Below are positions 31,016-60,883 of a stretch of 64,000 nt of DNA, piece by piece. The first letter of the stretch is position 1, and the number at the start of each line of letters is the position of its first letter. The notes below the pieces were generated by a model. That model was given only the letters and a program-made list of their open reading frames with translations. It did not search any database and was not told where the DNA came from. This stretch comes from Escherichia phage DaisyDussoix, in the sequence record MZ501058. One strand, given 5' to 3'. Position numbers and translations under genes: made by a program.

Positions 31016-31030
31016 TGTAAATATTTTAAT

Positions 31031-31104: not shown

Positions 31105-31203
31105 CCAAATTTAGGAATTAAGACTATGCGTCCAGGAAAGTTTAAAAAAGCTAATTGGACTAAAGAGTATAAAGAATACTTACTTAGTCTAGTAAAACAT
31201 AAT

Positions 31204-31276
31204 AGTTAGTTGGCAGAGTGGTTATGCACCTCCTTCATACGGAGTGACTACAGTGGTTCAAATCCACTACTAACTA
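31204..31276 (+). tRNA. tRNA-Met or Ile2 (anticodon CAU), third CAU tRNA
   Basis: Acceptor AGTTAGT/ACTAACT, loop TTCATAC, T-arm AGTGG-TTCAAAT-CCACT, CCA. Confidence 0.7.
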
Positions 31277-31316
31277 CCATTAAAAGAGCTAGAGATAGCT
31301 AAATTTAGGAGCAGCT

Positions 31317-47659: not shown

Positions 47660-47844
47660 TGGAAACTCTTTTTCTTTTAATGCTCGTAGGTTCCTTGCTA
47701 GTTATATTAGCACTTCTACTGATCTGCAATATTCTTAATAATAAGAATCTAGAGCTAAAGTGTGAGAACCAAATCCTTAATCGTGAACTTAAACAATATA
47801 ACCTAGCAGCCCATAAACTGTTAGACAAACTGGAGAATAAATAA
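47659..47844 (+). CDS. small membrane protein
   Basis: 61 aa, N-terminal TM helix. Confidence 0.4.
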   Translation: METLFLLMLVGSLLVILALLLICNILNNKNLELKCENQILNRELKQYNLAAHKLLDKLENK

Positions 47845-48458
47845 TGTTTACACAACAACCTATTCAAGTAGTACCAGACCATGAACTGAACACATGGGAT
47901 TATAGCTTTAAAGATTTAACGGCTACTGTACAATTCAAATCTATGAAGCTAACATTTGCACACACTGACCTTAGAGCATGTAAAGATCTTGAAAGTAAGC
48001 TCGAAGATGCTCGTAAGATTTTTGGCACGGCCCGCATCCCGGCTGATAACCTGATTAATGCACTAATCGATGCAGGGTACAAACTCGTGAAGACCGAGGT
48101 GAACCGCCCCAGTACTCCAGTGACTATTAGAGATCCGTGGCAATCAGGGCCAATCGCAATGCTGAATAACTCCGATAAAAGATTAATGTCAGATTTGCAC
48201 AATGTTCCATGTGGTGGTGTGGTAAGTAGTACGCAGTCATACAAGTTTGGTGAAGACTACGGCCCTTCTGTACAGCTGAAACATACTCAAGAAGCTTTTG
48301 AATCTGATATGCGAAGCGTAGCACCTGCGGATGCTGGAGTTTCTAGGAGTTCTGTTTGTACTATTCATTTTAATAATCCTAGTAAACATGGAAGCTTAGA
48401 AGATGCTATTATGGAGGCATTGGGAGCTGCTATTAATGAAGATAAGAGGGGTAATTAA
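47844..48458 (+). CDS. hypothetical protein
   Basis: 204 aa ORF. Confidence 0.55.
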   Translation: MFTQQPIQVVPDHELNTWDYSFKDLTATVQFKSMKLTFAHTDLRACKDLESKLEDARKIFGTARIPADNLINALIDAGYKLVKTEVNRPSTPVTIRDPWQSGPIAMLNNSDKRLMSDLHNVPCGGVVSSTQSYKFGEDYGPSVQLKHTQEAFESDMRSVAPADAGVSRSSVCTIHFNNPSKHGSLEDAIMEALGAAINEDKRGN

Positions 48459-49183
48459 TGAGTATAAAAAAGAATTTAGCAGAGATTATTAAGTTAGCTA
48501 GAGCTTGTAATGGAAAATGTGTTTCTCAGCTTAATGAACTAGAAGCACATGCAGTAGCATTTTGTGCAGAGTTTTATCCTGCATACCTTAATGCTAGTGG
48601 GCAACCTAAATATAATAAGGATGCCGAAGAAGTTACGTTAGCTCCTTCATATATTAGCTTGCGTCGTTTAATTCAAACCGTTGATCCTACTATTAAAGGA
48701 TTCTCAGCAGATTCATTCCACGTCTTTGCAGATAAAGAACTCCCGTATTTTAAAGAAGGAAATGCAAAGTCATGTCTAGAATGTTATCCAAATATTCTGA
48801 TGATTCCTCAAAAGCAATGTAAATACGATCATCTTCCTAGACTTACAAAGAAAGTAGAACCACCTTATTCTTCTCTGTCTGAATTAAAGCTAGGAATTGT
48901 ATCTACGCTTGCGCAGGTTCATCTAAGTATAGTTGACGACTCAACAACATCTAACCCTATTCTAGATGCTGCACATTATGAAATCTTACGTGATCCTGAG
49001 CAGGCTAGAAAAGTTGCGAAGTCTGTTAAGTTTGACATCTCAACAATTCTTGACACTAAACAAGAAACTAGACCTAGAGGAAGTGTAGATTATTCTGCGC
49101 TAAATTCCGAGTCATCTTACTTAGCAACATTCCTTTTCATGGCGTCAAAAGGGGTTATTCTAAAGGTTAATAAAGATGGATGA
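48458..49183 (+). CDS. hypothetical protein
   Basis: 241 aa ORF. Confidence 0.55.
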   Translation: MSIKKNLAEIIKLARACNGKCVSQLNELEAHAVAFCAEFYPAYLNASGQPKYNKDAEEVTLAPSYISLRRLIQTVDPTIKGFSADSFHVFADKELPYFKEGNAKSCLECYPNILMIPQKQCKYDHLPRLTKKVEPPYSSLSELKLGIVSTLAQVHLSIVDDSTTSNPILDAAHYEILRDPEQARKVAKSVKFDISTILDTKQETRPRGSVDYSALNSESSYLATFLFMASKGVILKVNKDG

Positions 49184-49904
49184 TTTACGTGCTGAAATTA
49201 ATAAAAAGTTACGAGAGGAAGCCCGGAGGTTTCCTCTTAAAAACTTTTTGAAGTCAAATGGCTCTACTAATATAACGAAGATTAGGCAACTTCACCCTGA
49301 CTTCCAACAAGAGGCCTTAAACCTTATCTTTATTAGGAAAGCTTTAAAAGTCCAGAAAGAAGAGTATGGGTATGAAAGAGTTAATTATAAGACAGCCAAT
49401 CAGTTAGTAGAGATATGGTGCTATAAACATAAAGGATACTTTATGCAAACTGCTAGATCTCACCTAGATGGGCACGGTTGTTTACAATGTGCTAGGGAAA
49501 GCAACCTAAATACACCTATCGAGAAACCGGAGGTAGAAGAAGATGTTCAGTCCCCCACATATCTCTATATCTTCTCTAATAAAGATCAGTCTAGGAAGAA
49601 ATTAAAGACAAAGATTGGGTTTTCTAGAGAGCCACATCAAAGGTTTAAGAATCTAGAGTATGATAAATTGCGTGTGCCGGGTTTTGAAGATATGGAAGTA
49701 TTTGGTATCTACCAGTATAAGAAAGGATCGAAAGAACTCGCTTACAAAATAGAACACCAAGCACATAAATTTTTCGAGAATAAATTTGCTAACCATTATA
49801 AATTCGATGGAGCAAAAGAGATATTCAACATTAAAGCTGTAGAGGCAGAAGAATATCTATTAAGTCAAGGTTGCATAAAAATTTACCCAACTCCAAACTC
49901 ATGA
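49176..49904 (+). CDS. T5orf172/GIY-YIG-like domain protein with N-terminal Zn-ribbon-like domain, putative homing endonuclease
   Basis: 242 aa; C-terminal YLYIFSNKDQSRKKLKTKIGFSREPHQRFKNL resembles T5orf172 core; N-terminus paralogous to 46709. Confidence 0.6.
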   Translation: MDDLRAEINKKLREEARRFPLKNFLKSNGSTNITKIRQLHPDFQQEALNLIFIRKALKVQKEEYGYERVNYKTANQLVEIWCYKHKGYFMQTARSHLDGHGCLQCARESNLNTPIEKPEVEEDVQSPTYLYIFSNKDQSRKKLKTKIGFSREPHQRFKNLEYDKLRVPGFEDMEVFGIYQYKKGSKELAYKIEHQAHKFFENKFANHYKFDGAKEIFNIKAVEAEEYLLSQGCIKIYPTPNS

Positions 49905-49931
49905 CAAAAATTTAAAAGTAACGAAATCTGC

Positions 49932-49961
49932 TTGACATTCGTGAGAATAATGTGTTATAAT
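49932..49961 (+). promoter_or_regulatory. consensus sigma70 promoter reading into the ORF-free repeat block
   Basis: CTTGACA, 17-18 bp spacer, TGTTATAAT; no ORF of 60 aa or more downstream for about 1.6 kb. Confidence 0.55.
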
Positions 49962-50290
49962 AATCTCATAGATTAAAAACATCAACTTGTTTTTACCTCT
50001 AGGCCGTAGATTTACATCATTCCTCGTAGGAAAACACTTGATGACGGTTCTGTTCGCAGGTTCTCGTCAATTGTTCTTCCACACCGAGACTTAGGAGGAT
50101 GTATCAAATCGCACGCGCCTAGAGGGGCTAACTCTCATGAAATGGGGGTATATTAACTTTTAAATAACTGATAAATATTTAAAGGCAATATCTGTGTTCA
50201 AGATGATACACCTGTTGCCGCTCATCTGCTAGGATGGCACAACACTTTCTTCTAGACTCCTAAGTTTCTAGGAAAACTCTGGTTAACTCA

Positions 50291-50363
50291 GGCGGTTTTC
50301 ATGTTCCTAGAAACTCTAGCAATAGGCGGTTAATATAGGGCGGTTATAGGGAGGGCGGTTATT
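50291..50363. repeat. direct repeats of GGCGGTTA (4 copies) interleaved with TCTAGAA motifs
   Basis: AGGCGGTTTT, AGGCGGTTAAT, GGGCGGTTATAG, GGGCGGTTATTT within 75 bp. Confidence 0.6.
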
Positions 50364-50404
50364 TCTAGAAGACATTTTTTGAAAACACATTTCTGGATTT
50401 TACT

Positions 50405-51010
50405 GTCGGATTTGCACATTGTGTTTCTAGAAATTTATGGTCGGATTTGCACAAACGCCTAAGTTTTTAGGAACTCTTACTCTCCTGAAAATAGCAGCAT
50501 TATTTCGGGCCGAAGGCCCGTGATTGCCTGAGTTTTTAGAGCCACAGAAATTTTCACTTGTCAAGCTATTTTGCCCCATTTTGCTAATAAAATTTTACTT
50601 TATCTCCACTAATCTCAAATTAACCCAAATCTTCTCAACTCTTCCCCAAAAACGCAGCAAATCAGGTGCTCCGCACCAAACATGCGCCTCTCTCACAGTT
50701 CCCCCAAGTTTCTCTCGCTCTCTCAACTTCTCCCCAAACCCACACAATCACACACCCTCCAATCGAAGTCACAAAAATCTTGTCGGATTCGCACATCTTA
50801 ATCCTAGAAAAACCGTGTCGGATTTGCACATACCCCACAGGATTCGAACGCAGTTCGAGATTGCTGGAGTTTTTGGGAAAATTCATTGTCGGATTTGCAC
50901 ACTATAAAAATTTTTCGGGTCGGATTTGCACACTACCAAAAATTGTCGGATTCGCACATACATGCCCGCACGTAACACCCGTGGAGCAATGTCGGATTTG
51001 CACAAAAGCG
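50405..51010. repeat. iteron-like array: 8 copies of GTCGGATT(T/C)GCACA
   Basis: Copies near 50406, 50440, 50783, 50815, 50887, 50918, 50943, 50990, all same orientation, irregular spacing; the ORF-track calls here are probably spurious. Confidence 0.7.
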
Positions 51011-51215
51011 CAGGGCAATTGCCCTGCTTGCCTGAATGCGAATGATAATGAGAATCATTCGCATTTAAAAAGCGGAACGAGAATGATAATAATTCGCATT
51101 TAAGAATGGAAGTGAGAATTATTCAGGAAGTGAAACGATTCTCATTTAAAAAGTGGAATGATTATTAGTTAGATAGTGAAATGCGAATGATAATGATTCG
51201 CATTTAAGAATGGAA
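51011..51215. repeat. array of AATGCGAATGATAAT...ATTCGCATTTAA hairpin-forming repeats
   Basis: Palindrome CAGGGCAATTGCCCTG, then three AATGCGAATGA/TCATTCGCATT inverted-repeat units each followed by TTAAGAATGGAAGTGAG-like sequence. Confidence 0.6.
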
Positions 51216-51237
51216 GTGAGTAACACTATTATTTAAG

Positions 51238-51319
51238 TTATCCACAGACTTATTAACAGCACGATTTGACTTGACAAAATCCTAGCCATTTTGAGGCGTT
51301 ATTAACAGACTTATCCACA
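51238..51319. promoter_or_regulatory. DnaA boxes (2 consensus TTATCCACA sites)
   Basis: TTATCCACA at 51238-51246 and 51311-51319. Confidence 0.6.
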
Positions 51320-51328
51320 GGTTATCCT

Positions 51329-51348
51329 ACTGTATAAATATACAGTAT
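51329..51348. promoter_or_regulatory. LexA (SOS) box, near-consensus
   Basis: TACTGTATAAATATACAGTA versus consensus TACTGTATATATATACAGTA, 19 of 20 match. Confidence 0.6.
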
Positions 51349-51540
51349 TCCTACGCAGTGAATAATTCTAATATACAGCTAAAACGCTCTCAAACGCATT
51401 CTAACGCGTTTAATTTTGGTGGGGATACTAAAACAAGGGCAAAATTGGAGGAGGCTTGAAAATTAGTTAGCTCGCTAATGATCACACAAGGCGATACGTA
51501 ACACCCTAATCATTAGCAGGCTAACCATCGCGGGCGCGGT

Positions 51541-51563
51541 CAAATGAGAATCATTCTCATTTG
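51541..51563. repeat. perfect palindrome CAAATGAGAATCATTCTCATTTG
   Basis: 10-bp arms; related to the GAGAATCATTC units upstream. Confidence 0.55.
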
Positions 51564-51604
51564 AAAATTGGGGGGCACTTCCTGATAGTTGCGCCCCGTG
51601 ATTA

Positions 51605-51799
51605 TTAGTCTGGTAGTCGGTGCGTGATTTTCTCCTCCTCCCCGTAGGAATCTACCAAATGTTGATAATAACCATCGTGATCATAAATCACTTTATCATA
51701 CTCGCCACGCTCGACCGCTTGTCGGTTTTCCGGCGTATCGGGCACGTAAAAAACATCAACCATTGTACTGATTTTGGTTACAACAATTTTATTGCTCAT
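51605..51799 (-). CDS. hypothetical protein (pre-early-like module)
   Basis: 64 aa, last gene of the minus-strand operon. Confidence 0.5.
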   Translation of the reverse strand: MSNKIVVTKISTMVDVFYVPDTPENRQAVERGEYDKVIYDHDGYYQHLVDSYGEEEKITHRLPD

Positions 51800-51824
51800 A
51801 ATAACGCCCCGTTACTATATAATC

Positions 51825-52169
51825 TCATTGCGCCACCTTTCGAAATGCTGTTTCAATACTATCAGCGGTGGATTGAATATATGCGCCTTTCATTATCAGG
51901 CGCTCGGTACATACCTTGCGGAAAATATTAATAAAATCATCTTCATTTTCTGCAATTAATGCTTCACCCATAACCTGAACGTCACAAGATGCAAAGGTCA
52001 AAAATTGAAACGCTAGTTCACGGGCAACGACCGCATTGATTTTATAATGCGCCTTGCCCTCATAAATATTAATAACGCCCTTATAGGCTGGGGAAAGCTG
52101 ATTTAAATAGTTTGCTAACAATGCCGGGCGGCAATTAGCAACAAAACGATTGCCCTCATAAATAACCAT
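51825..52169 (-). CDS. hypothetical protein
   Basis: ORF 51825..52208 trimmed to Met (MVIYEGNRF) whose ATG follows the upstream stop by 1 nt. Confidence 0.5.
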   Translation of the reverse strand: MVIYEGNRFVANCRPALLANYLNQLSPAYKGVINIYEGKAHYKINAVVARELAFQFLTFASCDVQVMGEALIAENEDDFINIFRKVCTERLIMKGAYIQSTADSIETAFRKVAQ

Positions 52170-52170
52170 T

Positions 52171-52383
52171 TTATAATACCCCACGAAACGCAGCGTAAAA
52201 GGTGGCAAAGTGTTTAACTGTTTCAGCGATCATGTTGCCGCGCTTGTCAAATTTCTTTTCTGTAACACGAAAGGCATTCTTATTACGTGCTACATATTCG
52301 ATTTTACAATCTTCCCGCTCGAACGTGTTAACGTCCACCAGCTTAAAGCCTTTCGAACGTGCGAGAGAAACATTACGAATCAT
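52171..52383 (-). CDS. hypothetical protein
   Basis: 70 aa ORF. Confidence 0.5.
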   Translation of the reverse strand: MIRNVSLARSKGFKLVDVNTFEREDCKIEYVARNKNAFRVTEKKFDKRGNMIAETVKHFATFYAAFRGVL

Positions 52384-52385
52384 TT

Positions 52386-52535
52386 TTATTCTCCTTTACT
52401 AGTCATGCAGCCCAGCAGATAAGAAAATACAGCGATACCCGCGCCGATAATAACGGCGTGAACACCGAAAGCTATTGCAAACAACGATAAAATAGCGCCC
52501 AAGATACCCGCCAGAATAGCTCGAAAAATAATCAT
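52386..52535 (-). CDS. small hydrophobic membrane protein
   Basis: About 49 aa (MIIFRAILAGILGAILSLFAIAFGVHAVIIGAGIAVFSYLL...) with GGAGAATAA RBS; below ORF-track cutoff. Confidence 0.35.
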   Translation of the reverse strand: MIIFRAILAGILGAILSLFAIAFGVHAVIIGAGIAVFSYLLGCMTSKGE

Positions 52536-52581
52536 TTTTATTCTCCTAGTCAGTGGGGGATATAATATCCCCCGTTATTAA

Positions 52582-52812
52582 TTACATTAAAACAATTTTT
52601 GCAGCTTGTTTTTTAGTGCAATGTTCAGCTTTCAGGGTATCCAGCAAAAAGCCCGCCGTTTGCTGATCGATTTTATCGGCGTTGTATAGTTCCTGAATGG
52701 TATTATAAGTTTTAGCAATGCCGAACTCCTGCACCATTTCATAGATGACAGCACGATTAGATACCCAGCCTTGAGCGGTGAACAGATGAGTAGCAGAAGA
52801 GTAAGCAACCAT
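52582..52812 (-). CDS. hypothetical protein
   Basis: 76 aa ORF. Confidence 0.5.
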   Translation of the reverse strand: MVAYSSATHLFTAQGWVSNRAVIYEMVQEFGIAKTYNTIQELYNADKIDQQTAGFLLDTLKAEHCTKKQAAKIVLM

Positions 52813-52916
52813 TTTAAGCCTCCAAATTTTTGGGAAATTTTCAACCCACCGTTTTGGTGTAAAAGCATTATAACAAAAAAGGCCACCATAAAAGGCGACC
52901 TTTACAAAACTTTACA

Positions 52917-53411
52917 TTAAACTACTTGTAAGGACTCAACATTGAAACATCGTTTCAATTCGTCATGCAAAACGGCATATTCCTCCCATCGGGTATTATC
53001 AGGAATATAAACAAGCTGTTTTAATCGGTTTGCATATATTACCGCTTTGTTATCGACTATCTCGACGCCGCCATATTTAATAATTAATTTCATGACGGAA
53101 TTAATAGGATCGCCGCCGTTTACATATGTGCCGGATTTACTTAGCTGATAATGATAAAGGCTTGCGTATACGTTTTCATTTTCATACCATTCGCCAGTTT
53201 CTTCGTCTTCATAGCCATCGCTACCAAAACGAGAAGCATTATCAACAGCCATTTCATGAGCAAAAGCGTCCAGATCCGTACCAGCAGGAACAAAATATTC
53301 CTCGGTATTCCCTTCCCCGCAATAGCCAGTATGACAATCGACTAAAATGATCATATCATGTTTAGCCGTGCTCACTTCCCCTAGCGAGAAGCCGTATTTT
53401 TCCTCAGCCAT
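52917..53411 (-). CDS. hypothetical acidic protein
   Basis: 164 aa ORF with GGAGG RBS. Confidence 0.55.
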   Translation of the reverse strand: MAEEKYGFSLGEVSTAKHDMIILVDCHTGYCGEGNTEEYFVPAGTDLDAFAHEMAVDNASRFGSDGYEDEETGEWYENENVYASLYHYQLSKSGTYVNGGDPINSVMKLIIKYGGVEIVDNKAVIYANRLKQLVYIPDNTRWEEYAVLHDELKRCFNVESLQVV

Positions 53412-53425
53412 TAGTTAGCCTCCTA

Positions 53426-53743
53426 TTAATTAGCGGGAAAATAAAACTGATTGCCTGTTTCATATTGGTCATTGTCTAAGAATACAACCTCATCCGTGAT
53501 TACTTCCGATTCTGATACTCCTATTAATAACTCACCTTTAAAAACGCAAAGTTTTCCATGACCTAAATCACGAAAGGCATGAAATCCGTTTGCGCTTTCT
53601 GCATGTTGCCATACGTGGGGCCATCCTGCTTTTTTCCATGAATCGGCGGTGTCTACTACTTCCGAAGAATAGTTAATGTGAGGATAGTCATCGCGCTGGA
53701 TTCTACCTTGCAATTGTTCTAGCATTTTTTGGTTAAGCTGCAT
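53426..53743 (-). CDS. hypothetical protein
   Basis: Start MQLNQKMLEQ preceded by AGGAGG RBS. Confidence 0.5.
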   Translation of the reverse strand: MQLNQKMLEQLQGRIQRDDYPHINYSSEVVDTADSWKKAGWPHVWQHAESANGFHAFRDLGHGKLCVFKGELLIGVSESEVITDEVVFLDNDQYETGNQFYFPAN

Positions 53744-53807
53744 AATTAGCCTCCTATTAATTAACAAGGGAATAGTAAAGTGGGGAAATAATCCCCACTA
53801 AATATTA

Positions 53808-54818
53808 TTACTCGATTTCGGTGCTAGTGGTAAAAGTAGAAATATCAATACCTTTCACCATTTCATCAATCATTTCAGCGATGTTGAAACTTTGTACCAT
53901 TTCCAACATTGCCGCCTCCATAGCCGCCCCTGCTACCGCTTTCGCCTTTTGGTTAGTCGGTGCGTACTGGTCAACCGCTACACTCAGCAGGTTAGCGATC
54001 ACTACACGACCAATAGGAGTATCGATATAACCTTTGATCATAAACGGTGCTTTTTTAGCCGCTACTTTCGTAATTTGAGTCAGTGCAATTTTACCCGCTT
54101 CCAGTTTTGCAGCATTTACAACAGCGGATTTATTAGCGGCAACGATGTTAGCAATCTTGGTCATGGTGTTTTTTCCTTTGTTTTCAGTAGTTTGAGTGTT
54201 AACGCTTTGAGTGTTAGAATTTACAGCATGGTTTTCTACGCTGTCAATAATCTGATCTTCATCTTTCCAGAAAGAAAAACCAGCGCTTTCTATATCCCCA
54301 TCATAAATATATGGGTATAGCTCCCGTGGTAACAAAAAATTACCATCGCCATCAAAAGCCATTATACCAGTATATTGAGATCCGTCGTTATCCGGCTTAT
54401 GCCATCCAGCGGGTAAATACTTCCAGATAACATCTAAAAATCCCTCAATGCTAGAAAGTCTATTTATCAGATCAAGCCCAATAAGCTCGAAACCATTTAT
54501 ATTAAATGATTGACGGCCTGAATTGCTATGATACGCAACAATATTATTACCCTGCGCAATAATAAAATCGGTATCCGGCCCCGCTCCCCTGCCTGTAAAG
54601 ATATGGCAATCCCGATTATATAAAACTAGCGTTGCCCCTTGTTTATATAACGGCAAAAAACCATCCATATCATAAGCGTCATAATCATCAAAAAAGTTTT
54701 GATGAATAGTTTCAGCCTTGTTAATAAAATGTTTAATGCTGGTTGACTTGCTACCGTCCAGCAGGTTGCGCAATGCGCCTTTTAAAACGGTGGCATTATC
54801 AGGTTTATACAGCCTCAT
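53808..54818 (-). CDS. hypothetical protein, first gene of minus-strand operon
   Basis: 336 aa; start MRLYKPD preceded by GAGGAGG RBS; no motif recognised. Confidence 0.6.
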   Translation of the reverse strand: MRLYKPDNATVLKGALRNLLDGSKSTSIKHFINKAETIHQNFFDDYDAYDMDGFLPLYKQGATLVLYNRDCHIFTGRGAGPDTDFIIAQGNNIVAYHSNSGRQSFNINGFELIGLDLINRLSSIEGFLDVIWKYLPAGWHKPDNDGSQYTGIMAFDGDGNFLLPRELYPYIYDGDIESAGFSFWKDEDQIIDSVENHAVNSNTQSVNTQTTENKGKNTMTKIANIVAANKSAVVNAAKLEAGKIALTQITKVAAKKAPFMIKGYIDTPIGRVVIANLLSVAVDQYAPTNQKAKAVAGAAMEAAMLEMVQSFNIAEMIDEMVKGIDISTFTTSTEIE

Positions 54819-55084
54819 TTGTTCGGCCTCCTCGTTAATCGGTGAGTGAATGATAAAGGTAATTTTCTAGCATAGGCAAATATTATTTTACCTTTTTATT
54901 TTCCTTGCCTAGCGCCTATTTTTATGCTAATCGCGCAGCGGTGTAATAAAGAGCAAAACACGGCGAAGCCACCAGGCCGCAGCATTGAGGCTTTACTTTA
55001 CTATTACCTTGCAGCGTTTAGCTCGTTAGAATGCGATTTAGGCCGCTTAAAATTGATTGCAGTTGTTAACACTACCTTTTTACC

Positions 55085-55100
55085 CTGTATATTTATACAG
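55085..55100. promoter_or_regulatory. LexA (SOS) box upstream of the minus-strand operon
   Basis: CTGTATATTTATACAG core, CTGT-N8-ACAG, about 270 bp upstream of the 54818 start. Confidence 0.55.
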
Positions 55101-55110
55101 TGGAATAACC

Positions 55111-55192
55111 TGTGGATAAGTCTGTGTAAAAGTCCTTATATCGCCGCCTATCGTGTCAAGTTATTTTGTGCTGTGGATAACGTTGTGGATAA
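55111..55192. promoter_or_regulatory. DnaA box cluster (3 sites, inverted orientation)
   Basis: TGTGGATAA at 55111-55119, 55172-55180, 55184-55192. Confidence 0.6.
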
Positions 55193-55443
55193 CTTAAATG
55201 ATAGTGGTTCTCACTTAGCTAGATGATTTCTTATAGTTATTATTTCTCATTAATTTATATGTATATTATATATCATGAAATAGTTATTTAGCTAATGAGA
55301 TTTTTCGTGATTAATAGTCTGCTAATAGTTTACTCTGTTACAGTCCACCAGCATGATTATCATCCTAGCAATTATTATCCTGCTATCTTTCCGATACATA
55401 CTAGCAAACAAAAGTCAATTAATTTATTTCATAAAATAAGTAG

Positions 55444-55510
55444 TTATCCACTGGAAAATAAAAGTCAAGTGGATAACTAGGAAAATTTCATTTTTGCTTT
55501 TGGGGATAAG
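55444..55510. promoter_or_regulatory. additional DnaA-box-like sites in divergent intergenic region
   Basis: TTATCCAC at 55444, GTGGATAA at 55470, GGGGATAAG at 55502. Confidence 0.4.
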
Positions 55511-55923
55511 TTATCAACAAGGCTAGAATGCGCCTAAAACGCCCTAGAACGCGATGAAGTTTTTAGCCATCCCATCATAAGGGAACACGCCGTTTATCGC
55601 CATCAGGAGGATTCTAGATTTTGTCAAGTATGGCAAAGCAAATATAAATGAAAAAATTACTTGCCTATTTGCTATGTTTTGTGGTATTCGCGCGCCCGTT
55701 TCTTTTAATTTTAGGCCGTCGCCGCACGGTGTCCGGTGAGTTTTACCTTTACATTTCTTTACAAAAATAAGGTTGCGCCATTTTCGGGAATCCCCTATTA
55801 TTTATCACGTAGGGCGGCAATGACGAACTACACGGCGGGAAGTTTACCGCCACGCTCTTTAAAAATTGGGTACATCTTAAAGCCTATCGGCGGTAAACTT
55901 ATACATTATAAGGAATCGACGAT

Positions 55924-56127
55924 ATGAAACAAACGCTTTTGATCACTGGCAAGCCTATTAAGGCACTAGATAGCAAAACAAAAAATTTGTTGACAGTAGC
56001 TCAAAGATCAGTAAAATATAGATTCACGCAGTACAAGAAAGGTCGCCAGCAAGGTCTGGAAATGATCTGGCGAAACATTATGATTGACTTGAAAGAAAAT
56101 CATAAAAAACTGCAAAAAACAGTTTGA
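55924..56127 (+). CDS. hypothetical small basic protein
   Basis: 67 aa ORF. Confidence 0.4.
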   Translation: MKQTLLITGKPIKALDSKTKNLLTVAQRSVKYRFTQYKKGRQQGLEMIWRNIMIDLKENHKKLQKTV

Positions 56128-56354
56128 CAACCTAGCCGATAGGCTTTAAGATGTACTCAGTTCGATAAGAGCGATAACTTGATAAAATTTGACGGTCGGC
56201 ACTTACCATAATGTGTCCCGCCCCCTAACTGGGATATAGCGGCCTACGTGGAGTTCTTTAAATTGATTATAGCGGTGAGCGGATTGTTGCTTATTACCTG
56301 CTACTTTCTAGCAGGTAATGCGGAACAATCCCCAAATAACTAGGAGTTTATATT

Positions 56355-56606
56355 ATGAAAAACGTTATTACCGCGCCTAAAATTGGTCAATCCGTTTTTA
56401 TTCCTTTCGTTACTAAAACGGATGAACTAACCGGAAAAGCCGAACGTATTAAAGGTGCGGCGCTTATGCCGTTTGATACAATCGACGCGGTATACGCTGA
56501 AAATGAACGTAGTAACAACGGCAAAACCGTTTTTAGCGTTCGCGTTAAATCCGGCGACGTTGTAAAGGTTGTTCAACGTAACGAAAAATGGGAAGCTGTA
56601 TTGTAA
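56355..56606 (+). CDS. hypothetical protein
   Basis: 83 aa ORF with AGGAG RBS, followed by perfect palindrome. Confidence 0.5.
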   Translation: MKNVITAPKIGQSVFIPFVTKTDELTGKAERIKGAALMPFDTIDAVYAENERSNNGKTVFSVRVKSGDVVKVVQRNEKWEAVL

Positions 56607-56620
56607 TGTAGTGTTAACTT

Positions 56621-56650
56621 TATATCCCCCTTATTTCAGGGGGATATAAC
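56621..56650. terminator. perfect 10-bp-stem palindrome (terminator or operator) in pre-early region
   Basis: TATATCCCCC-TTATTTCA-GGGGGATATA; no U-tract. Confidence 0.45.
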
Positions 56651-56663
56651 GATTAACATTAGG

Positions 56664-56682
56664 TTAATCTAATCCCTTAAAT
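56664..56682 (+). promoter_or_regulatory. conserved pre-early leader motif TTAATCTAATCCCTTAAAT
   Basis: Same 19-mer about 20 nt upstream of the 56704, 57490 and 59985 start codons. Confidence 0.5.
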
Positions 56683-56703
56683 TAAACTAATAGGAGTTTT
56701 ATC

Positions 56704-57111
56704 ATGACTAACGCTAAAACCGCAAAATTCGGATGGAATGAAGAAAACACTCAGAAAGCTGTTTCCATGTATCAGCAGTTAATTAATGAAAACGGTTTAG
56801 ATTTCGCAAATAGCGACGGCCTGAAAGAGATTGCAAAAGCAGTAGGCGCGGCTTCCCCTGTATCCGTTCGCTCAAAATTGACCAGTGCAAAAGCCTATCA
56901 AAAAAGCGATAAGCCGCGTAAAGTTGGCGGCGGTAGCTCTGTGCGTAAAGCTCACTATGTGCGAGTAATTGCAAAACACGCTATCGATTCCGGCATTATC
57001 AAAGACGCCGATGATCTGGCAAGTCTGGAAAGTGCAAAACTTGAAACGCTGGACGCAGTAGCGCAATTGTTAGGCGTTGCCGATGAAGTAAAACAGGCCG
57101 CAGGGGAATAA
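56704..57111 (+). CDS. pre-early protein, A2-like by size and position
   Basis: 135 aa ORF preceded by the conserved leader motif; placed next to the A1-like gene; A2 identity is from memory of size only. Confidence 0.45.
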   Translation: MTNAKTAKFGWNEENTQKAVSMYQQLINENGLDFANSDGLKEIAKAVGAASPVSVRSKLTSAKAYQKSDKPRKVGGGSSVRKAHYVRVIAKHAIDSGIIKDADDLASLESAKLETLDAVAQLLGVADEVKQAAGE

Positions 57112-57158
57112 TAGTTATATCTTGCCCCCTTCTAGTGAGGGGGCAATAATATAACTGT
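57112..57158. terminator. long palindrome (terminator or operator)
   Basis: TAGTTATATCTTGCCCCCT-TCTAGTGA-GGGGGCAATAATATAACT. Confidence 0.45.
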
Positions 57159-57201
57159 TTAGCGATAGTTATTTTCTTCCCTTAAATCAGGAGTTTTAAA
57201 A

Positions 57202-57399
57202 ATGATTTTCTTCCCTACTGAATCATTAATTCTAGGCTTGTTTATTATGGCGGCCTCGTTATTGTTCGCTTATTTTCAAAATGATTTAGATTCATATTAT
57301 TTTAAACGTAAATCTAAACTAGCAAAACGTTTAGGTCTGCTTTGTTTTATCGCTGCCGTTGCTTGTGGTGTTAGTTCTAGCCTAGTGCCTTTAAATTAA
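57202..57399 (+). CDS. small membrane protein
   Basis: 65 aa with hydrophobic segments. Confidence 0.4.
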   Translation: MIFFPTESLILGLFIMAASLLFAYFQNDLDSYYFKRKSKLAKRLGLLCFIAAVACGVSSSLVPLN

Positions 57400-57406
57400 T
57401 GTTGCA

Positions 57407-57440
57407 AATTATAACGCCTATTATTTGAGGCGTTATATTT
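57407..57440. terminator. palindrome (terminator or operator)
   Basis: AATTATAACGCCT-ATTATTTG-AGGCGTTATATTT. Confidence 0.45.
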
Positions 57441-57456
57441 GGCAATATTGCCATTA

Positions 57457-57475
57457 TTAATCTAATCCCTTTAAT
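57457..57475 (+). promoter_or_regulatory. conserved pre-early leader motif
   Basis: TTAATCTAATCCCTTTAATGGAG upstream of A1-like gene. Confidence 0.5.
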
Positions 57476-57489
57476 GGAGTTTTATTACT

Positions 57490-59160
57490 ATGATTATTTC
57501 CGCAGAAAAACAAACCGTTATCCTGAAAATGGCCGCTGACTTTAATTTCTATGGTAAACGTCTGCGCGCTACTAAACTGGAGGTCTGCGACGATATATCA
57601 AAAGCAGTCTACGATACAACGAAACATTCCACCGCCATTTGTGATTGGCTGGAAGCAAACAAACCAGCGAAACCAAAAGCGGCAAAAGTAGCAAAAGCCA
57701 TTAAAAATGATGAGCGCCCAGAAGCGGCTGGGATTGTTTCTAGTACCGTGGAACAGTGGGAAGTAAAACAGGGTAAACGTTTTATTATTACGTCGATTCA
57801 GAATAATACTTTCCCGCATAAAAACTTTTTGGCCTCACTGGAGCAATTTGCTAAATATATCGGCGCTGATTTGCTGGTTAGCAAGTATATTTATAATAAA
57901 AACGGATTCCAAAATGGGGAAGGTGCGGACGGTATCAAATATGACCCCGCTTTTGATAAATATATTTGCAGCAAAAACGTGTTTTTGAATAATCGCCGTT
58001 TTGCTTTCATGGCTGAAATTAACGTTTTGCCAACCGCAGATTATCCGCTTTCTGGATTCGCTGAAACTGCAACCGCGCTTAATCTTGAAGGTCTGGCAAT
58101 TGGTCACGCTAAAATCACCGCCGAAAGCGTTCCAGCTTTAAAAGGTGAAGTAGTGCGCCGTATGTATTCAACCGGAACGGCAACGCTCAAAAACTACATT
58201 CAGCAGAAGGCAGGACAAAAAGCCGAAGCATTGCATAATTTCGGTGCGCTTGTTGTCGAGTTCGACGAGGACGGTGAGTTTTTTGTTCGCCAGCTTGAAA
58301 CAATGGACGAAAGCGGGGTGTTTTATGATCTGAATGTTTGCGCTACTCCCGCCGGATGCTATGAAACAACGGGGCACGTTTTAGGTTTACAATATGGCGA
58401 CATTCACGCCGAAAAATTAGATGAAGAGTGCGCCGCCGCATCTTGGGGGCATGGTGATACTTATGGGCTTGTGGATATTCTTAAACCAAAATATCAGTTT
58501 GTGCATGACGTGCATGATTTTACGTCCCGCAATCATCATAACCGCGCATCCGGTGTATTCCTAGCAAAACAGTATGCCGCCGGACGTGATAAAGTTCTGG
58601 ATGATCTTATCGATACGGGGCGAGTGCTGGAATCAATGGAACGTGATTTTAGTCAAACGATCATTGTTGAATCGAATCACGATTTGGCGCTATCCCGTTG
58701 GCTTGATGATCGTAATGCTAACATTAAAGACGATCCCGCGAACGCCGAACTATATCATCGCCTGAATGCTGCAATTTACGCGGCAATCGGTGAACATGAC
58801 GAAACGTTTAACGTGCTAGATTATGCGTTGCGCAAGGTTGCAGGTTGTGAATTTAACGCCATTTTTCTAACGACTGACCAATCTTTCAAGATTGCAGGGA
58901 TTGAATGCGGCGTACACGGTCACAATGGCATTAACGGCAGCCGTGGCAATCCTAAACAATTTAAGAAATTGGGCAAGTTAAACACGGGGCATACGCATAC
59001 CGCCAGCATTTACGGCGGCGTATACACCGCTGGCGTAGCTGGTAGTCTGGATATGGGTTACAACGTTGGCGCGTCAAGCTGGACGCAGACGCATTTAATT
59101 ACCTATGCAAATGGTCAAAGAACATTGATTGACTTTAAGAACGGTAAATTCTTTGCATAA
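57490..59160 (+). CDS. A1: pre-early protein A1-like metallophosphoesterase-domain protein
   Basis: 556 aa; C-terminal half has YGDIHAE, ESNHD, GVHGHNG, GHTHT calcineurin-like phosphoesterase motifs; length matches my recollection of T5 A1. Confidence 0.7.
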   Translation: MIISAEKQTVILKMAADFNFYGKRLRATKLEVCDDISKAVYDTTKHSTAICDWLEANKPAKPKAAKVAKAIKNDERPEAAGIVSSTVEQWEVKQGKRFIITSIQNNTFPHKNFLASLEQFAKYIGADLLVSKYIYNKNGFQNGEGADGIKYDPAFDKYICSKNVFLNNRRFAFMAEINVLPTADYPLSGFAETATALNLEGLAIGHAKITAESVPALKGEVVRRMYSTGTATLKNYIQQKAGQKAEALHNFGALVVEFDEDGEFFVRQLETMDESGVFYDLNVCATPAGCYETTGHVLGLQYGDIHAEKLDEECAAASWGHGDTYGLVDILKPKYQFVHDVHDFTSRNHHNRASGVFLAKQYAAGRDKVLDDLIDTGRVLESMERDFSQTIIVESNHDLALSRWLDDRNANIKDDPANAELYHRLNAAIYAAIGEHDETFNVLDYALRKVAGCEFNAIFLTTDQSFKIAGIECGVHGHNGINGSRGNPKQFKKLGKLNTGHTHTASIYGGVYTAGVAGSLDMGYNVGASSWTQTHLITYANGQRTLIDFKNGKFFA

Positions 59161-59175
59161 TTAAATTATTCCCCT

Positions 59176-59199
59176 AGCGGCTTGAAATATAGCCGCTAT
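59176..59199. terminator. palindrome after A1-like gene
   Basis: TAGCGGCT-TGAAATAT-AGCCGCTA. Confidence 0.45.
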
Positions 59200-59215
59200 T
59201 TCAGGAGTCACAAAA

Positions 59216-59473
59216 ATGAAAGTTACATTACCCAAAACACTGGACGAAAAAGTATTCATTTCACCGGATGAAATGGAATCTGATAAAGTTTACAGCTTCG
59301 GGCCTATCCTAGCCGCCAAAACTAATACTGATGGCATTATTTCCGTCGATTCCCGTGATAATGATGTTGTTCCTTTTGATGACGATAGCGCTTTTTATGA
59401 GTGGCTAAGCGATAATAATTTACCCGTAAACGGTGAATTAACGCCGTACCAGATGCAGATTATTATCAAATAA
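59216..59473 (+). CDS. hypothetical acidic protein
   Basis: 85 aa ORF. Confidence 0.5.
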   Translation: MKVTLPKTLDEKVFISPDEMESDKVYSFGPILAAKTNTDGIISVDSRDNDVVPFDDDSAFYEWLSDNNLPVNGELTPYQMQIIIK

Positions 59474-59511
59474 ATTAAATCCATTATTAAACTAATTGGA
59501 GTTTTATAAAC

Positions 59512-59904
59512 ATGAAAAAGCAAAATATTCCATTCGATCGCGCTCAGTCTTCCATTGTTCTGGTTTATTCTAATGGTGAACGTTATCACGTCGAGGCAGG
59601 CCACGTTATTGATGAATTATTAGATTTCAATGATGCGATGCAGGTTACAACATTTGCATATATGCAGGGCAAACTAACCAGCCATATTAAAGCAAAAGGC
59701 GTTTATGTTGACACGATGAAACAAGAAACAATCATTATTGACGCGGTAAAATCTGGTCTAGCCTTTGCAGTTGTCGCGCCTTGCCCCGCTTGCCTTGATG
59801 ATCAGCTAACGAGTGCGAAAGTATATACTTGTGCGGGTATTCGTTCCAGCGTATCCGGTGAGGATGTTAGTTTTATCGCTGATGCGTTGGCTTATGGTCT
59901 TTAA
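59512..59904 (+). CDS. hypothetical protein
   Basis: 130 aa ORF preceded by conserved leader. Confidence 0.5.
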   Translation: MKKQNIPFDRAQSSIVLVYSNGERYHVEAGHVIDELLDFNDAMQVTTFAYMQGKLTSHIKAKGVYVDTMKQETIIIDAVKSGLAFAVVAPCPACLDDQLTSAKVYTCAGIRSSVSGEDVSFIADALAYGL

Positions 59905-59914
59905 TAGTTGATTT

Positions 59915-59946
59915 ATTATTACCCGCTTATAAATAGCGGGTAATGC
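59915..59946. terminator. palindrome (terminator or operator)
   Basis: TTATTACCCGCT-TATAAAT-AGCGGGTAATG. Confidence 0.45.
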
Positions 59947-59950
59947 TGAA

Positions 59951-59969
59951 TTAATCTAATCCCTTAAAT
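59951..59969 (+). promoter_or_regulatory. conserved pre-early leader motif
   Basis: TTAATCTAATCCCTTAAATGGAG upstream of dmp-like gene. Confidence 0.5.
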
Positions 59970-59984
59970 GGAGAACGCAACAAA

Positions 59985-60719: not shown

Positions 60720-60736
60720 TAATTAAAGTTGAAATA

Positions 60737-60773
60737 GTTTCACCCTGCAATTAAAATGGTTGCAGGGTGAAAC
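60737..60773. terminator. palindrome after dmp-like gene, likely bidirectional terminator
   Basis: GTTTCACCCTGCAA-TTAAAATGG-TTGCAGGGTGAAAC, between convergent gene sets. Confidence 0.55.
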
Positions 60774-60883
60774 AGTTACCCTGATAATAGTAACGGGGGT
60801 GGCGGTTAGCAGACTAAGTATTCTCCCCCAACCCACTGGACACACCTCCATGTGTAATCTTATGAAATTTGGCAAAAGTCAAA

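What the first reader, a model, noticed from the sequence alone, without database searches (positions are those of the whole stretch)
49932..51600. 1.7 kb ORF-free block of iteron-like repeats and palindromes downstream of a consensus promoter
The block has eight same-orientation copies of GTCGGATT(T/C)GCACA, four GGCGGTTA copies, repeated hairpin units and perfect palindromes, all transcribed from a consensus TTGACA/TATAAT promoter with no credible ORF. It sits at the boundary between the early genes and the pre-early-like region. That position fits what is described for the T5 injection-stop signal, but it could equally be a protein-titration array, an origin, or a noncoding RNA locus.
Basis: partly seen in the sequence, partly recalled or inferred. 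Interest (0 to 1): 0.7.

Follow-up and report, generated by a model that had tools for sequence, protein, structure and literature searches.

The report
T5-type injection-stop non-coding junction region
This 1.7 kb gene-free stretch matches, repeat for repeat, the well-documented non-coding region of phage T5 where DNA entry into the host pauses, so it is a known feature whose mechanism is still unsolved.

Summary
There are eight exact same-strand GTCGGATTYGCACA copies (0.01 expected), palindromes, a 12/12 consensus promoter and no conserved ORF. GGCGGTTA occurs three times in the block, not four; the shorter GGCGGTT occurs four times.

The block is the reverse-complement homologue of phage T5's 1662-bp non-coding region (9194-10856). 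GenBank annotates that region element by element, and RefSeq labels part of it "injection stop signal (iss)". All eight 14-mers map one-to-one onto T5 direct repeats DRD1-8. A1, A2 and dmp lie in the same terminal repeat. Verdict: already known.

Beyond the literature I searched, I found the following:
- The genome's physical right end (the terminal-repeat boundary) lies inside the block at 50539, within its most invariant 160 bp.
- Palindrome D is a near-consensus LexA box, with one mismatch.
- The AT-rich palindromic units resemble Fur operators.
- The promoter probably does not transcribe the whole block. It precedes a roughly 200-nt module: a short hairpin, a 130-nt hairpin with a mosaic interior, then a terminator-like hairpin.

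Published work still describes how the pause works as experimentally unresolved. The mechanism I prefer is that host proteins form a brake at 51010-51350 and that a phage protein acts on the DRD array. That is inference.

The parts
49932..49961 (+). Consensus sigma-70 promoter (TTGACA, 18-nt spacer, TG-extended TATAAT). It lies in unique DNA 28 bp after the stop codon of the last early gene.
   Evidence: 12/12 match. The same position holds TTGACA-N18-TATAAT or TATCAT in all 19 distinct sequences that contain both search anchors.
49968..50165 (+). Candidate RNA of about 200 nt, not annotated in the public records I inspected. It has a 5' hairpin (49974-49995), a long imperfect hairpin (49996-50125), and a 3' hairpin ACUCUCAU-GAA-AUGGGGGU (50131-50149) followed by a U/A-rich tail.
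   Evidence: Folding gives z = -6.3. At least five unrelated hairpin interiors in relatives all keep the same architecture, with z from -3.6 to -5.5. The 3' hairpin has U.G pairs, and C-to-U changes keep pairing only on the + strand. There is no Rfam family. Expression has not been shown.
50197..50262 (+). Near-invariant segment TTCAAGATGATACACCTGTTGCCGCTCATCTGCTAGGATGGCACAACACTTTCTTCTAGA. It is a possible second hairpin with a CUUUCUUCU terminator, and it marks where alignability with T5 begins.
   Evidence: Conservation is 0.94-0.99 across 21 relatives. It was folded.
50263..50361 (+). Inverted repeat AGTTTCTAGGAA/TTCCTAGAAACT (50263-50315) and four same-strand GGCGGTT motifs (50291, 50325, 50339, 50354). 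T5 carries DRD9 here; the window has a 46-nt deletion instead.
50404..50453 (-). T5 direct repeats DRD8 (50404-50418) and DRD7 (50440-50453). They are 35 nt apart with TTCTAGAA between them, on the unique-DNA side of the terminal-repeat boundary.
   Evidence: One-to-one mapping to AY587007 features.
50457..50600 (.). The most invariant part of the block. It contains the hairpin GGGCCGAAGGCCC (50507-50519) and the terminal-repeat boundary, which is the physical right end of the genome, at 50539 (unique side 50538). It is a likely end-formation or packaging signal.
   Evidence: T5 LTR end 10139 maps to 50539. Six public contig ends from five genomes stop at 50538-50541. Conservation is 0.91-1.0, and the longest invariant run is here.
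50550..50780 (.). Strand-asymmetric tract, C-rich on the + strand with GC skew of -0.6 to -0.75. It includes T5 direct repeats DRA2/DRA3 (50614-50652).
50781..51004 (-). T5 direct repeats DRD6 to DRD1 (TGTGCRAATCCGACA in T5 orientation), all in one orientation. They start 4 bp from the nick site.
   Evidence: Relatives have 8-9 copies, always on one strand. A variant, GTCGG(A/T)TT(T/C)GCACA, occurs in Serratia phage Kamaji.
51008..51027 (-). Conserved sequence of T5's major single-strand interruption at 7.9% (CCCTGCGC, 51008-51015), overlapping palindrome J (51010-51027). Palindrome J is also a terminator-like hairpin on the - strand.
   Evidence: Annotated as a nick in AY587007 and NC_005859. 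Mapped. The motif is present in 20 of the 21 aligned relatives. Terminator scan. The nick itself cannot be tested from sequence.
51035..51210 (.). AT-rich palindromic units (T5 DRC1-4, DRE, palindromes E to I). They resemble Fur operators. The calculated T5 first-step-transfer shear point (9618) maps here, at about 51059.
   Evidence: There are six sites with 5 or fewer mismatches to the Fur 19-mer against 0.19 expected. The E. coli fhuA operator region has 5 mismatches and shares ATCATTCTCGTT. Shear point from Davison 2020.
51215..51345 (-). IRC'-spacer-IRD' inverted-repeat module. It has two DnaA-box pairs 3 bp apart: TTATCCACA 51238-51246 with TTATTAACA 51250-51258, and TTATTAACA 51299-51307 with TTATCCACA 51311-51319. 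Its inverted partner lies at 55085-55216.
   Evidence: The arrangement matches the one described for 25 T5-like phages.
51328..51347 (.). Palindrome D, TACTGTATAAATATACAGTA. It has one mismatch to the LexA-box consensus.
   Evidence: The E. coli recA box has 4 mismatches to the same consensus. It is kept with 1-2 mismatches in 19/19 relatives covering it and in the distant My1 and IME260-like genomes.
51350..51604 (-). Distal end of the pre-early transcription unit. It holds terminator-like hairpins (51571-51598, 51378-51411), the inverted repeat 51466-51525 and a perfect 25-bp palindrome TCAAATGAGAATCATTCTCATTTGA (51540-51564).
   Evidence: T5 annotates terminators at the equivalent place.

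Best explanation
The block is the conserved non-coding junction between the long terminal repeat and the unique early region of a T5-like phage (Demerecviridae, Markadamsvirinae). [quoted passage not shown] It is a composite of cis-acting DNA elements, not a gene.

Shown by homology: every T5 element is present in the same order. These are palindrome D, the IRD'-spacer-IRC' module with paired DnaA boxes, the DRC/DRE palindromic units, palindrome J with the 7.9% nick sequence, DRD1-8, DRA2/3 and the terminal-repeat boundary.

Inferred mechanism (my estimate about 0.3-0.35, not shown). The terminal repeat enters the cell first, left end leading. When the segment 51350 to 51010 arrives, pre-existing host DNA-binding proteins load on it and on its inverted partner at 55085-55216. 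These would be DnaA at the four boxes, plausibly LexA at palindrome D, and possibly Fur or another protein at the AT-rich palindromes. The resulting bulky or membrane-tethered complex halts transfer near 51010-51060. The same-orientation DRD array just beyond the stop would then be the site where a co-evolving phage protein acts to restart transfer. The best candidate is the pre-early DNA-binding protein A2, working with A1.

Two further functions share the block: the genome's physical right end at 50539, and a promoter-driven hairpin module at 49932-50165. The confidence value refers to the identity of the block as the iss-region homologue, not to the mechanism.
For: Identity of the block:
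- megablast finds 533 T5-like records, 207 of them covering at least 80% of the query.
- The alignment with T5 is near-colinear from 51440 to 50190.
- All annotated T5 features map one-to-one.
- RefSeq labels the region iss and marks the nick.
- A1, A2 and dmp lie in the same repeat.
- The block is non-coding in relatives yet 0.9-1.0 conserved.

Mechanism leads:
- The DnaA-box pairs match Davison's description exactly.
- DnaA-box clusters persist even in contigs whose A1 is only 45% identical, whereas DRD, LexA-like and Fur-like motifs do not. This fits a host factor for the DnaA boxes and a co-evolving phage factor for the DRDs.
- The LexA-like box has one mismatch and is conserved.
- Fur-like sites are about 30-fold enriched.
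- The calculated shear point falls in the AT-rich palindromes, and DRD1 starts 4 bp beyond the nick.
Against: No experiment defines which element causes the pause. Papers from 2023 and 2026 still call the mechanism unknown.

Proteins binding in the cytoplasm would intuitively favour DNA entry rather than block it.

The Fur-like units are duplicates of one another, so the enrichment counts perhaps one or two independent events. In Kamaji no site reaches 4 or fewer mismatches.

The LexA-like box is absent from the most distant relatives. It could be the site of another dimeric protein.

If the pause is at the nick, about 490 bp of downstream DNA, which is most of the DRD array, would lie inside the 167-nm tail tube. 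Cytoplasmic A2 could not reach it.

The DRDs flank the genome end, which fits a packaging role equally well.
Confidence: 0.9

Rival explanations
1. Genome-end formation and packaging signal. T5 injects its left end first, so packaging should start at the right end. The terminase would then recognise and cut at the terminal-repeat boundary inside this block. The DRD arrays on both sides of the cut, and the invariant hairpin, would be terminase small-subunit or accessory binding sites, comparable to lambda cosB or the repeat arrays beside T7's terminal repeat. This can coexist with an injection-stop role for 51010-51350.
For: The physical end maps to 50539, in T5 and in contig ends of five other public genomes. 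The most invariant 160 bp of the block surrounds it. Six DRDs lie 240-465 bp inside the boundary and two lie 85-135 bp outside. A strongly skewed tract abuts the end.
Against: The contexts of the left end (60842) and right end (50539) share no detectable motif. No DRD lies near the left end. Distant relatives keep a T5-type small terminase (Pfam hits) but have no DRD. Some record ends are set by their submitters, partly by analogy with T5. The direction of packaging is inferred, not shown.
Confidence: 0.25
2. Replication origin of the iteron type. DnaA boxes, an AT-rich repeat region and eight same-orientation 14-mers would serve as iterons for a phage initiator.
For: The combination of DnaA boxes, 29-32% GC palindromic units and direct repeats resembles plasmid and phage origins. 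Davison notes the similarity to oriC.
Against: According to Davison's review of electron-microscopy mapping, T5 origins lie near the middle of the genome, and the replication genes are not yet in the cell during first-step transfer. No initiator-like gene is adjacent. The region is duplicated at the extreme right end of the virion DNA.
Confidence: 0.07
3. The whole block is one long non-coding RNA locus, transcribed from the 49932 promoter.
For: The promoter is a perfect consensus and is conserved. There is no conserved ORF downstream.
Against: Two terminator-like hairpins follow within 300 nt. Only the first roughly 200 nt shows RNA-type features. The repeats are conserved as DNA motifs with no RNA family match. 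The copy of the block at the right end of the virion DNA would lack the promoter altogether. The promoter lies in DNA that enters only in the second step.
Confidence: 0.05
4. Decoy or titration array. The LexA-, DnaA- and Fur-type sites soak up host regulators to reprogramme the host, rather than to stop DNA entry.
For: There is a near-consensus LexA box, four DnaA-type boxes and five or six Fur-like sites within 340 bp, with second copies in the partner repeat.
Against: There is one copy of the array per infecting genome at the relevant time. Host DNA is degraded and host expression is shut off within minutes of first-step transfer. Derepressing host regulons would therefore have little effect.
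Confidence: 0.07

Closest known systems
Bacteriophage T5 injection stop signal region (Repeat Region 3 / 1662-bp non-coding region, AY587007 9194-10856; NC_005859 misc_feature 9140-10149)
   Same: It occupies the same position, at the inner end of the roughly 10-kb terminal repeat and overrunning into unique DNA. It holds the same ordered elements: palindrome D, IRD'-spacer-IRC' with DnaA-box pairs, DRC/DRE units, palindrome J, the nick sequence, DRD1-8 and DRA2/3. The neighbours are also the same, with pre-early genes on one side and early genes on the other. Identity to T5 is 77% over the whole block and much higher across the aligned core.
   Different: DRD9 and 46 nt around it are missing. 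T5 palindrome C is not conserved. The 250-300 bp next to the early genes (49905-50190) does not align with T5, where a different hairpin occupies the same place. Palindrome J is an 18-nt perfect palindrome here and 17 nt in T5.
Concatemer-junction and terminal-repeat flanks of T7/T3 (arrays of short repeats beside the terminal repeat, a hairpin-forming inverted repeat, and a promoter reading into the junction). This comparison rests on my own knowledge, not on a tool result.
   Same: In both cases a direct terminal repeat is flanked by arrays of short same-orientation repeats. A long inverted repeat lies just outside the repeat, and a strong promoter points at the repeat boundary.
   Different: The repeat is 10.3 kb here against 160-230 bp there. 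The polymerase is the host sigma-70 enzyme rather than a phage RNA polymerase. The promoter and hairpin lie on the opposite side of the repeat relative to the packaged genome. There is no sequence similarity, and no functional data exist for T5.
Bacterial oriC-type DnaA-box clusters and SOS/Fur operators of E. coli
   Same: The block has two consensus TTATCCACA boxes and two one-off-consensus boxes in pairs. It has a 20-mer with one mismatch to the LexA consensus. It has palindromes with 3-5 mismatches to the Fur 19-mer, the same range as the fhuA operator region.
   Different: The sites are not upstream of regulated genes. Binding has not been tested. Published work has discussed only the DnaA boxes in this region. 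I found no paper in the searchable library that links LexA or Fur to it.

Membership tests
T5-type injection-stop (iss) non-coding region | Lies at the inner end of the long direct terminal repeat and spans the junction between repeat and unique DNA | tested here: met
   T5 LTR end 10139 maps to window 50539, and T5 position 1 maps to 60842. The repeat therefore spans 50539-60842 in reverse orientation. Public genome ends coincide with these positions.
T5-type injection-stop (iss) non-coding region | More than 1.2 kb without a conserved protein-coding gene, although the nucleotide sequence is highly conserved | tested here: met
   The three longest ORFs are broken by stops or frameshifts in most of the 21 relatives. 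Conservation is 0.9-1.0 over most of 50197-51460. There are no Pfam hits.
T5-type injection-stop (iss) non-coding region | Ordered set of named repeats: palindrome D, IRD'-spacer-IRC' with DnaA-box pairs 3 bp apart, DRC/DRE units, palindrome J and a series of DRD repeats | tested here: met
   Every feature of AY587007 except palindrome C and DRD9 maps colinearly. The spacer between IRC' and IRD' is the same length as in T5: 51 nt by the GenBank coordinates.
T5-type injection-stop (iss) non-coding region | An inverted partner (IRC-spacer-IRD) elsewhere in the same terminal repeat | tested here: met
   Window 55085-55216 matches 51214-51345 in inverted orientation at 77% identity.
T5-type injection-stop (iss) non-coding region | [quoted passage not shown] | tested here: met
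   PHROGs hits: 57490-59160 is 'DNA transfer protein' (A1; E = 3e-244), and 56704-57111 is 'DNA binding protein' (A2; E = 5e-52). The window ORF 59985-60719 is dmp by colinearity with the annotated T5 dmp gene. Its own PHROG hit is labelled polynucleotide kinase. A1 homologues are named as such by their sources.
T5-type injection-stop (iss) non-coding region | DNA transfer actually pauses here, and the major 7.9% nick is present in virion DNA | not testable with these tools
   Only the nick sequence CCCTGCGC is conserved. Confirming the pause needs shear and sequencing of infected cells, plus nick mapping.
LexA (SOS) operator | CTGT-N8-ACAG palindrome close to TACTGTATATATATACAGTA | tested here: met
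   The site at 51328-51347 has one mismatch. The only other site in 64 kb with 4 or fewer mismatches is in the partner repeat at 55083. The recA box has 4 mismatches.
LexA (SOS) operator | LexA binds the site and this has a regulatory consequence | not testable with these tools
   This needs a gel-shift or footprint assay, and infection of lexA mutant hosts.
Fur operator | Match to the 19-bp GATAATGATAATCATTATC consensus or the 7-1-7 motif | tested here: inconclusive
   There are six sites with 3-5 mismatches (0.19 expected), within the range of the fhuA operator region at 5 mismatches. However, the units are paralogous, and Kamaji has none with 4 or fewer mismatches.
Iteron-type replication origin | Iterons together with DnaA boxes, an AT-rich region and an adjacent initiator gene, and mapped initiation at the site | tested here: inconclusive
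   The sequence ingredients are present. No initiator gene is adjacent. The literature places T5 origins mid-genome.
Small non-coding RNA gene (promoter, structured body, intrinsic terminator) | Conserved promoter, structure better than shuffled controls, terminator, membership of a known RNA family, and a detected transcript | tested here: inconclusive
   The promoter is present. The structure criterion is met, with z from -3.6 to -6.3 in five unrelated variants. The terminator-like hairpin has + strand U.G pairs but a weak U tract. No Rfam family matches. A transcript cannot be tested here.
Terminase recognition (pac/cos-like) site | Lies at the physical genome end and is flanked by repeated binding sites | tested here: inconclusive
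   The end lies inside the block, and repeats flank it. The binding protein is unknown, and the left end shares no motif.

The most novel reading that the evidence does not exclude
The pause site would be a composite landing pad for host global regulators. It holds four DnaA boxes, a near-consensus LexA box and an array of Fur-operator-like palindromes, duplicated in inverted orientation 3.8 kb away. On this reading pre-existing host proteins, not phage proteins, form the brake on genome entry. Entry would then be coupled to the host's replication, SOS or iron status. The DRD array would be the phage-specific restart or packaging site. Separately, the unique-side edge may carry an unannotated, promoter-driven RNA of about 200 nt whose 130-nt hairpin interior has been swapped at least five times among relatives.
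Probability: 0.15. Interest if true: 0.7.

Novelty: already known. Interest (0 to 1): 0.3.

Why it matters
Two-step DNA transfer in T5 was described more than 50 years ago. Papers as recent as 2023 and 2026 still say the cis-acting stop signal is not understood experimentally. This window adds no new kind of element.

What the mapping does provide is a short list of testable parts:
- a 340-bp candidate brake (51010-51350) made of recognisable host-protein sites
- a co-evolving repeat array next to it
- the genome end embedded in the same block
- an overlooked promoter-hairpin module

Public T5-like genome records annotate many spurious 'hypothetical proteins' across this block. They also sometimes misplace the terminal-repeat boundary, in one case at about the nick site. 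Recognising the region would improve their annotation.

Tried and rejected
- **Rfam scans.** I scanned the block and four variant loci and found nothing above noise. The only hit was PhrS at 15.8 bits against a threshold of 37.
- **tRNA search.** There are no tRNAs in the block. All 23 tRNAs lie at 19.9-31.3 kb.
- **Coding capacity.** The three longest ORFs are rejected as genes. Annotators of public records call small CDSs here in inconsistent frames and strands.
- **Shared motif at the two genome ends.** A local alignment of the left and right terminus contexts scores no better than shuffles.
- **Host antisense target for the long hairpin.** There is no blastn match in 5,426 E. coli genomes.
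- **Strand asymmetry of the long hairpin as evidence for RNA.** This is inconclusive for the isolated hairpin: the + strand is more stable in three of five variants and slightly less stable in two.
- **A LexA-regulated promoter reading into palindrome D.** The -35 element of the 10/12 promoter-like site at 51393-51365 is not conserved in T5, so I dropped it.
- **IHF consensus sites.** None occur in the block.
- **A perfect Fur 7-1-7 box at 60596-60610.** It lies inside the dmp coding sequence in an Asp/Asn-rich stretch, so I treat it as probably driven by codon choice.
- **Davison 2015 review.** It could not be read because it is not held in the library.
Full report
**1. The observation**

The interval 49905-51604 is a gap between + strand genes ending at 49904 and - strand genes starting at 51605.
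- The 14-mer GTCGGATTYGCACA occurs eight times exactly, always on the + strand, between 50405 and 51004. A one-mismatch copy lies at 48188. Shuffles give 0.01 expected.
- GGCGGTTA occurs three times in the block and once at 60801. The 7-mer GGCGGTT occurs four times on one strand, against 0.08 expected.
- Direct-repeat families and perfect or near-perfect palindromes are reproduced.
- The promoter at 49932-49961 is a 12/12 match with an extended -10 element.
- The three longest ORFs in the block are broken by stops or frameshifts in most of the 21 aligned relatives and stay open in only a few. Nucleotide identity is nevertheless 77-94%. None has a Pfam hit.

The sequence features are real and far beyond chance.

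**2. What it is**

megablast finds 533 phage records, all T5-like by name, and 207 of them cover at least 80% of the block. The Spc35 record places the match at the inner end of its 'left TR; first-step-transfer DNA'.

Aligned with T5 (AY587007), the window is the reverse complement and nearly colinear from 51440 to 50190. Wang et al. annotated this T5 region feature by feature, and each feature maps onto the window:

| T5 feature | Window coordinates |
|---|---|
| palindrome D | 51328-51347 |
| IRD' | 51305-51345 |
| IRC' | 51215-51253 |
| DRC1-4 and palindromes E to I | 51040-51209 |
| palindrome J | 51010-51027 |
| 'major single-stranded nick 1, 7.9%' (CCCTGCGC) | 51008-51015 |
| DRD1-6 | 51004-50781 |
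| DRA2/3 | 50652-50614 |
| LTR end (10139) | 50539 |
| DRD7-8 | 50453-50404 |

DRD9 is deleted in the window.

RefSeq T5 labels 9140-10149 'injection stop signal (iss)' and marks the nick. Davison (bioRxiv 10.1101/866236) describes the 1662-bp non-coding region 9194-10856 and its 'Repeat Region 3'. He reports the same order of elements in 25 T5-like phages, with DnaA boxes in pairs 3 bp apart. The window has exactly this arrangement: TTATCCACA/TTATTAACA at 51238-51258, and TTATTAACA/TTATCCACA at 51299-51319.

**3. Context**

- T5 position 1 maps to window 60842. Beyond it the window continues into the homologue of the DNA that precedes T5's right repeat.
- The window is therefore a collapsed, circularly permuted assembly with one repeat copy at 50539-60842.
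- That repeat contains A1 (57490-59160), A2 (56704-57111) and dmp (59985-60719). A receptor-binding tail protein gene follows at 62233.
- The inverted partner of the IRC'-IRD' module lies at 55085-55216.
- The gene to the left of the block (49176-49904) carries a T5orf172-type nuclease-related domain.

**4. Conservation**

Across 21 related loci the core 50197-51460 is mostly 0.9-1.0 conserved. The segment 49980-50190 is only 0.4-0.6 conserved. Every relative that covers the core keeps 8-9 DRDs on one strand, the hairpin GGGCCGAAGGCCC, a LexA-like palindrome D and 4-8 Fur-like units. All but one also keep the nick motif.

The order LexA-like box, DnaA boxes, AT-rich palindromes, DRD array also holds in the distant My1 and IME260-like genomes. 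It holds in Serratia phage Kamaji as well (A1 61% identical), where the DRD is GTCGG(A/T)TT(T/C)GCACA.

Two contigs whose A1 is only 45% identical have 2.3-kb gene-free blocks in an equivalent place. Those blocks hold different repeat families and clusters of DnaA boxes, but no DRD, LexA-like or Fur-like motifs. This pattern suggests that the DnaA boxes serve a host factor and that the DRD-type arrays serve a co-evolving phage factor. That is inference.

**5. Points I did not find in the literature I could search**

(a) *The genome's physical right end lies inside the block.* T5's repeat ends at window 50539. Six public contig ends from five genomes stop at 50538-50541. The surrounding 160 bp is the most invariant part of the block and includes its longest invariant run. 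A 230-bp tract with GC skew of -0.6 to -0.75 abuts the end. The T5 left end enters the cell first, so packaging presumably starts at this right end. On that inference, part of the block is probably an end-formation signal.

(b) *Palindrome D is a near-consensus LexA box.* It has one mismatch to TACTGTATATATATACAGTA, whereas the E. coli recA box has four. The only other site in 64 kb with four or fewer mismatches is in the partner repeat.

(c) *The AT-rich palindromic units resemble Fur operators.* Six sites have 3-5 mismatches to the 19-mer, against 0.19 expected. The E. coli fhuA operator region has five mismatches and shares ATCATTCTCGTT with one unit. The units are paralogues, so this remains a lead and is not a finding.

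Library searches linking T5-like phages or first-step transfer with LexA, SOS boxes or Fur boxes found nothing relevant.

**6. The promoter**

The promoter lies in unique DNA about 600 bp outside the repeat. It is conserved in position in every relative examined, including T5, which has TTGACA-N18-TATCAT. It is followed by:
- a short hairpin (49974-49995)
- a 130-nt imperfect hairpin (49996-50125)
- a small hairpin ACUCUCAU-GAA-AUGGGGGU (50131-50149) with a U/A-rich tail
- an invariant segment (50197-50262) ending in CUUUCUUCU

The fold has z = -6.3. The interior of the long hairpin is replaced by unrelated sequence in at least five variants. All five still fold into the same architecture, with z from -3.6 to -5.5.

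The small 3' hairpin has invariant U.G pairs, and its C-to-U changes preserve pairing only on the + strand. This favours an RNA-level structure for the 3' hairpin. The long hairpin alone shows no consistent strand bias. No Rfam family matches, and no E. coli sequence matches.

I read this as a discrete structured RNA of about 200-300 nt (probability about 0.45). The alternatives are a 3'-end or terminator module of the early operon, or a DNA-level hairpin. Either way it argues against the block being a single transcript. The discriminator of this promoter lacks the ATATT motif reported for T5 early promoters.

**7. How it probably works**

The literature is explicit that the mechanism has not been resolved experimentally. 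Davison proposes that membrane-associated DnaA binds the boxes and halts entry, and that A1/A2 then release the DNA.

My preferred version (about 0.3-0.35) is as follows. Pre-existing host proteins load on 51350-51010 and on the inverted partner, forming the brake. These would be DnaA, plausibly LexA, and possibly Fur or another protein. The DRD array immediately beyond is the restart site for the pre-early DNA-binding protein A2 together with A1.

There is a geometric caveat. The tail tube is 40 rings of 41.84 Å, or 167 nm, which holds about 490 bp of DNA. If the cytoplasmic boundary is at the nick, most of the DRD array would sit inside the virion conduit during the pause. This weakens the A2 idea. 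It leaves room for the packaging rival (0.25), in which the DRDs flanking the genome end are terminase sites. I consider an origin (0.07), a decoy array (0.07) and a single long RNA (0.05) less likely.

**8. Verdict**

It is a known and already annotated feature of T5-like phages. This particular sequence is 93% identical to published genomes, and its promoter-proximal 296 nt are 100% identical to phage KS_S14. Interest is modest. The value lies in the dissected map and the testable leads for an old open question.

Noticed in passing
window 49932-50262: A conserved consensus promoter is followed by a short hairpin, a 130-nt hairpin and a terminator-like hairpin. The interior of the long hairpin has been replaced by unrelated sequence in at least five lineages (window/EPS7 type, S126/PMBT31 type, L059 type, L003 type, T5 type), yet the fold is kept. 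It is not annotated in the T5 records and has no Rfam family.
   Followed up: yes
window 50539 and 60842: The window is a collapsed, circularly permuted assembly. One copy of the 10.3-kb terminal repeat spans 50539-60842 in reverse orientation. It is joined on one side to early genes and on the other to the DNA that precedes the right repeat in T5. The physical right genome end therefore lies inside the studied block.
   Followed up: yes
L124 (Salmonella phage Seafire NC_048110) locus position 2285: The 'terminal repeat predicted with PhageTerm' in this record ends at a position that extrapolates to about window 51008. That is the conserved nick site, not the T5-type repeat boundary at 50539. 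Nick-derived read starts may have misled the prediction.
   Followed up: partly
window 48188-48201: A ninth DRD copy (GTCAGATTTGCACA, one mismatch, same strand) lies inside the coding gene 47844-48458. T5 annotates an exact 'direct repeat D copy 10' at the equivalent place (12073-12086, inside ORF019). Spc35 and KPP2018 also have one.
   Followed up: partly
window 60596-60610: A perfect Fur 7-1-7 motif, TGATAATGATTATCA, lies about 240 bp from the left genome end, inside the 3' part of the dmp gene. Similar near-perfect matches occur in other T5-like loci (L107, L043, L111). It is probably a by-product of an Asp/Asn-rich coding stretch.
   Followed up: partly
L136 14486-16763 and L137 14838-17158: Distant phage contigs (A1 45% identical) have 2.3-kb gene-free blocks near their A1/dmp genes. 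These hold different repeat families (CTGACCCTAAGCTG in both orientations; the palindrome TGAAAGAAGTCTTTCA four times) and clusters of DnaA boxes. The architecture is kept while the motifs have turned over.
   Followed up: partly
window 49176-49904: The last early gene before the block encodes a 242-aa protein with a T5orf172 / homing-endonuclease-like C-terminal domain. It sits directly next to the mosaic hairpin region, which may explain the cassette-like exchange there.
   Followed up: no
L124, L127, L128, L129 (public records): Several GenBank records annotate numerous short 'hypothetical protein' CDSs across this non-coding block, in mutually inconsistent frames and strands. An example is a 177-aa CDS equivalent to about window 50521-51051. 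These are very likely spurious.
   Followed up: yes
window 50550-50800: A 230-bp tract with extreme GC skew (-0.6 to -0.75, almost no G on the + strand) lies immediately inside the repeat boundary. Its role is unexplained.
   Followed up: no
window 19923-31279: There is a cluster of 23 tRNA genes, all on the + strand. This is typical of T5-like genomes.
   Followed up: no
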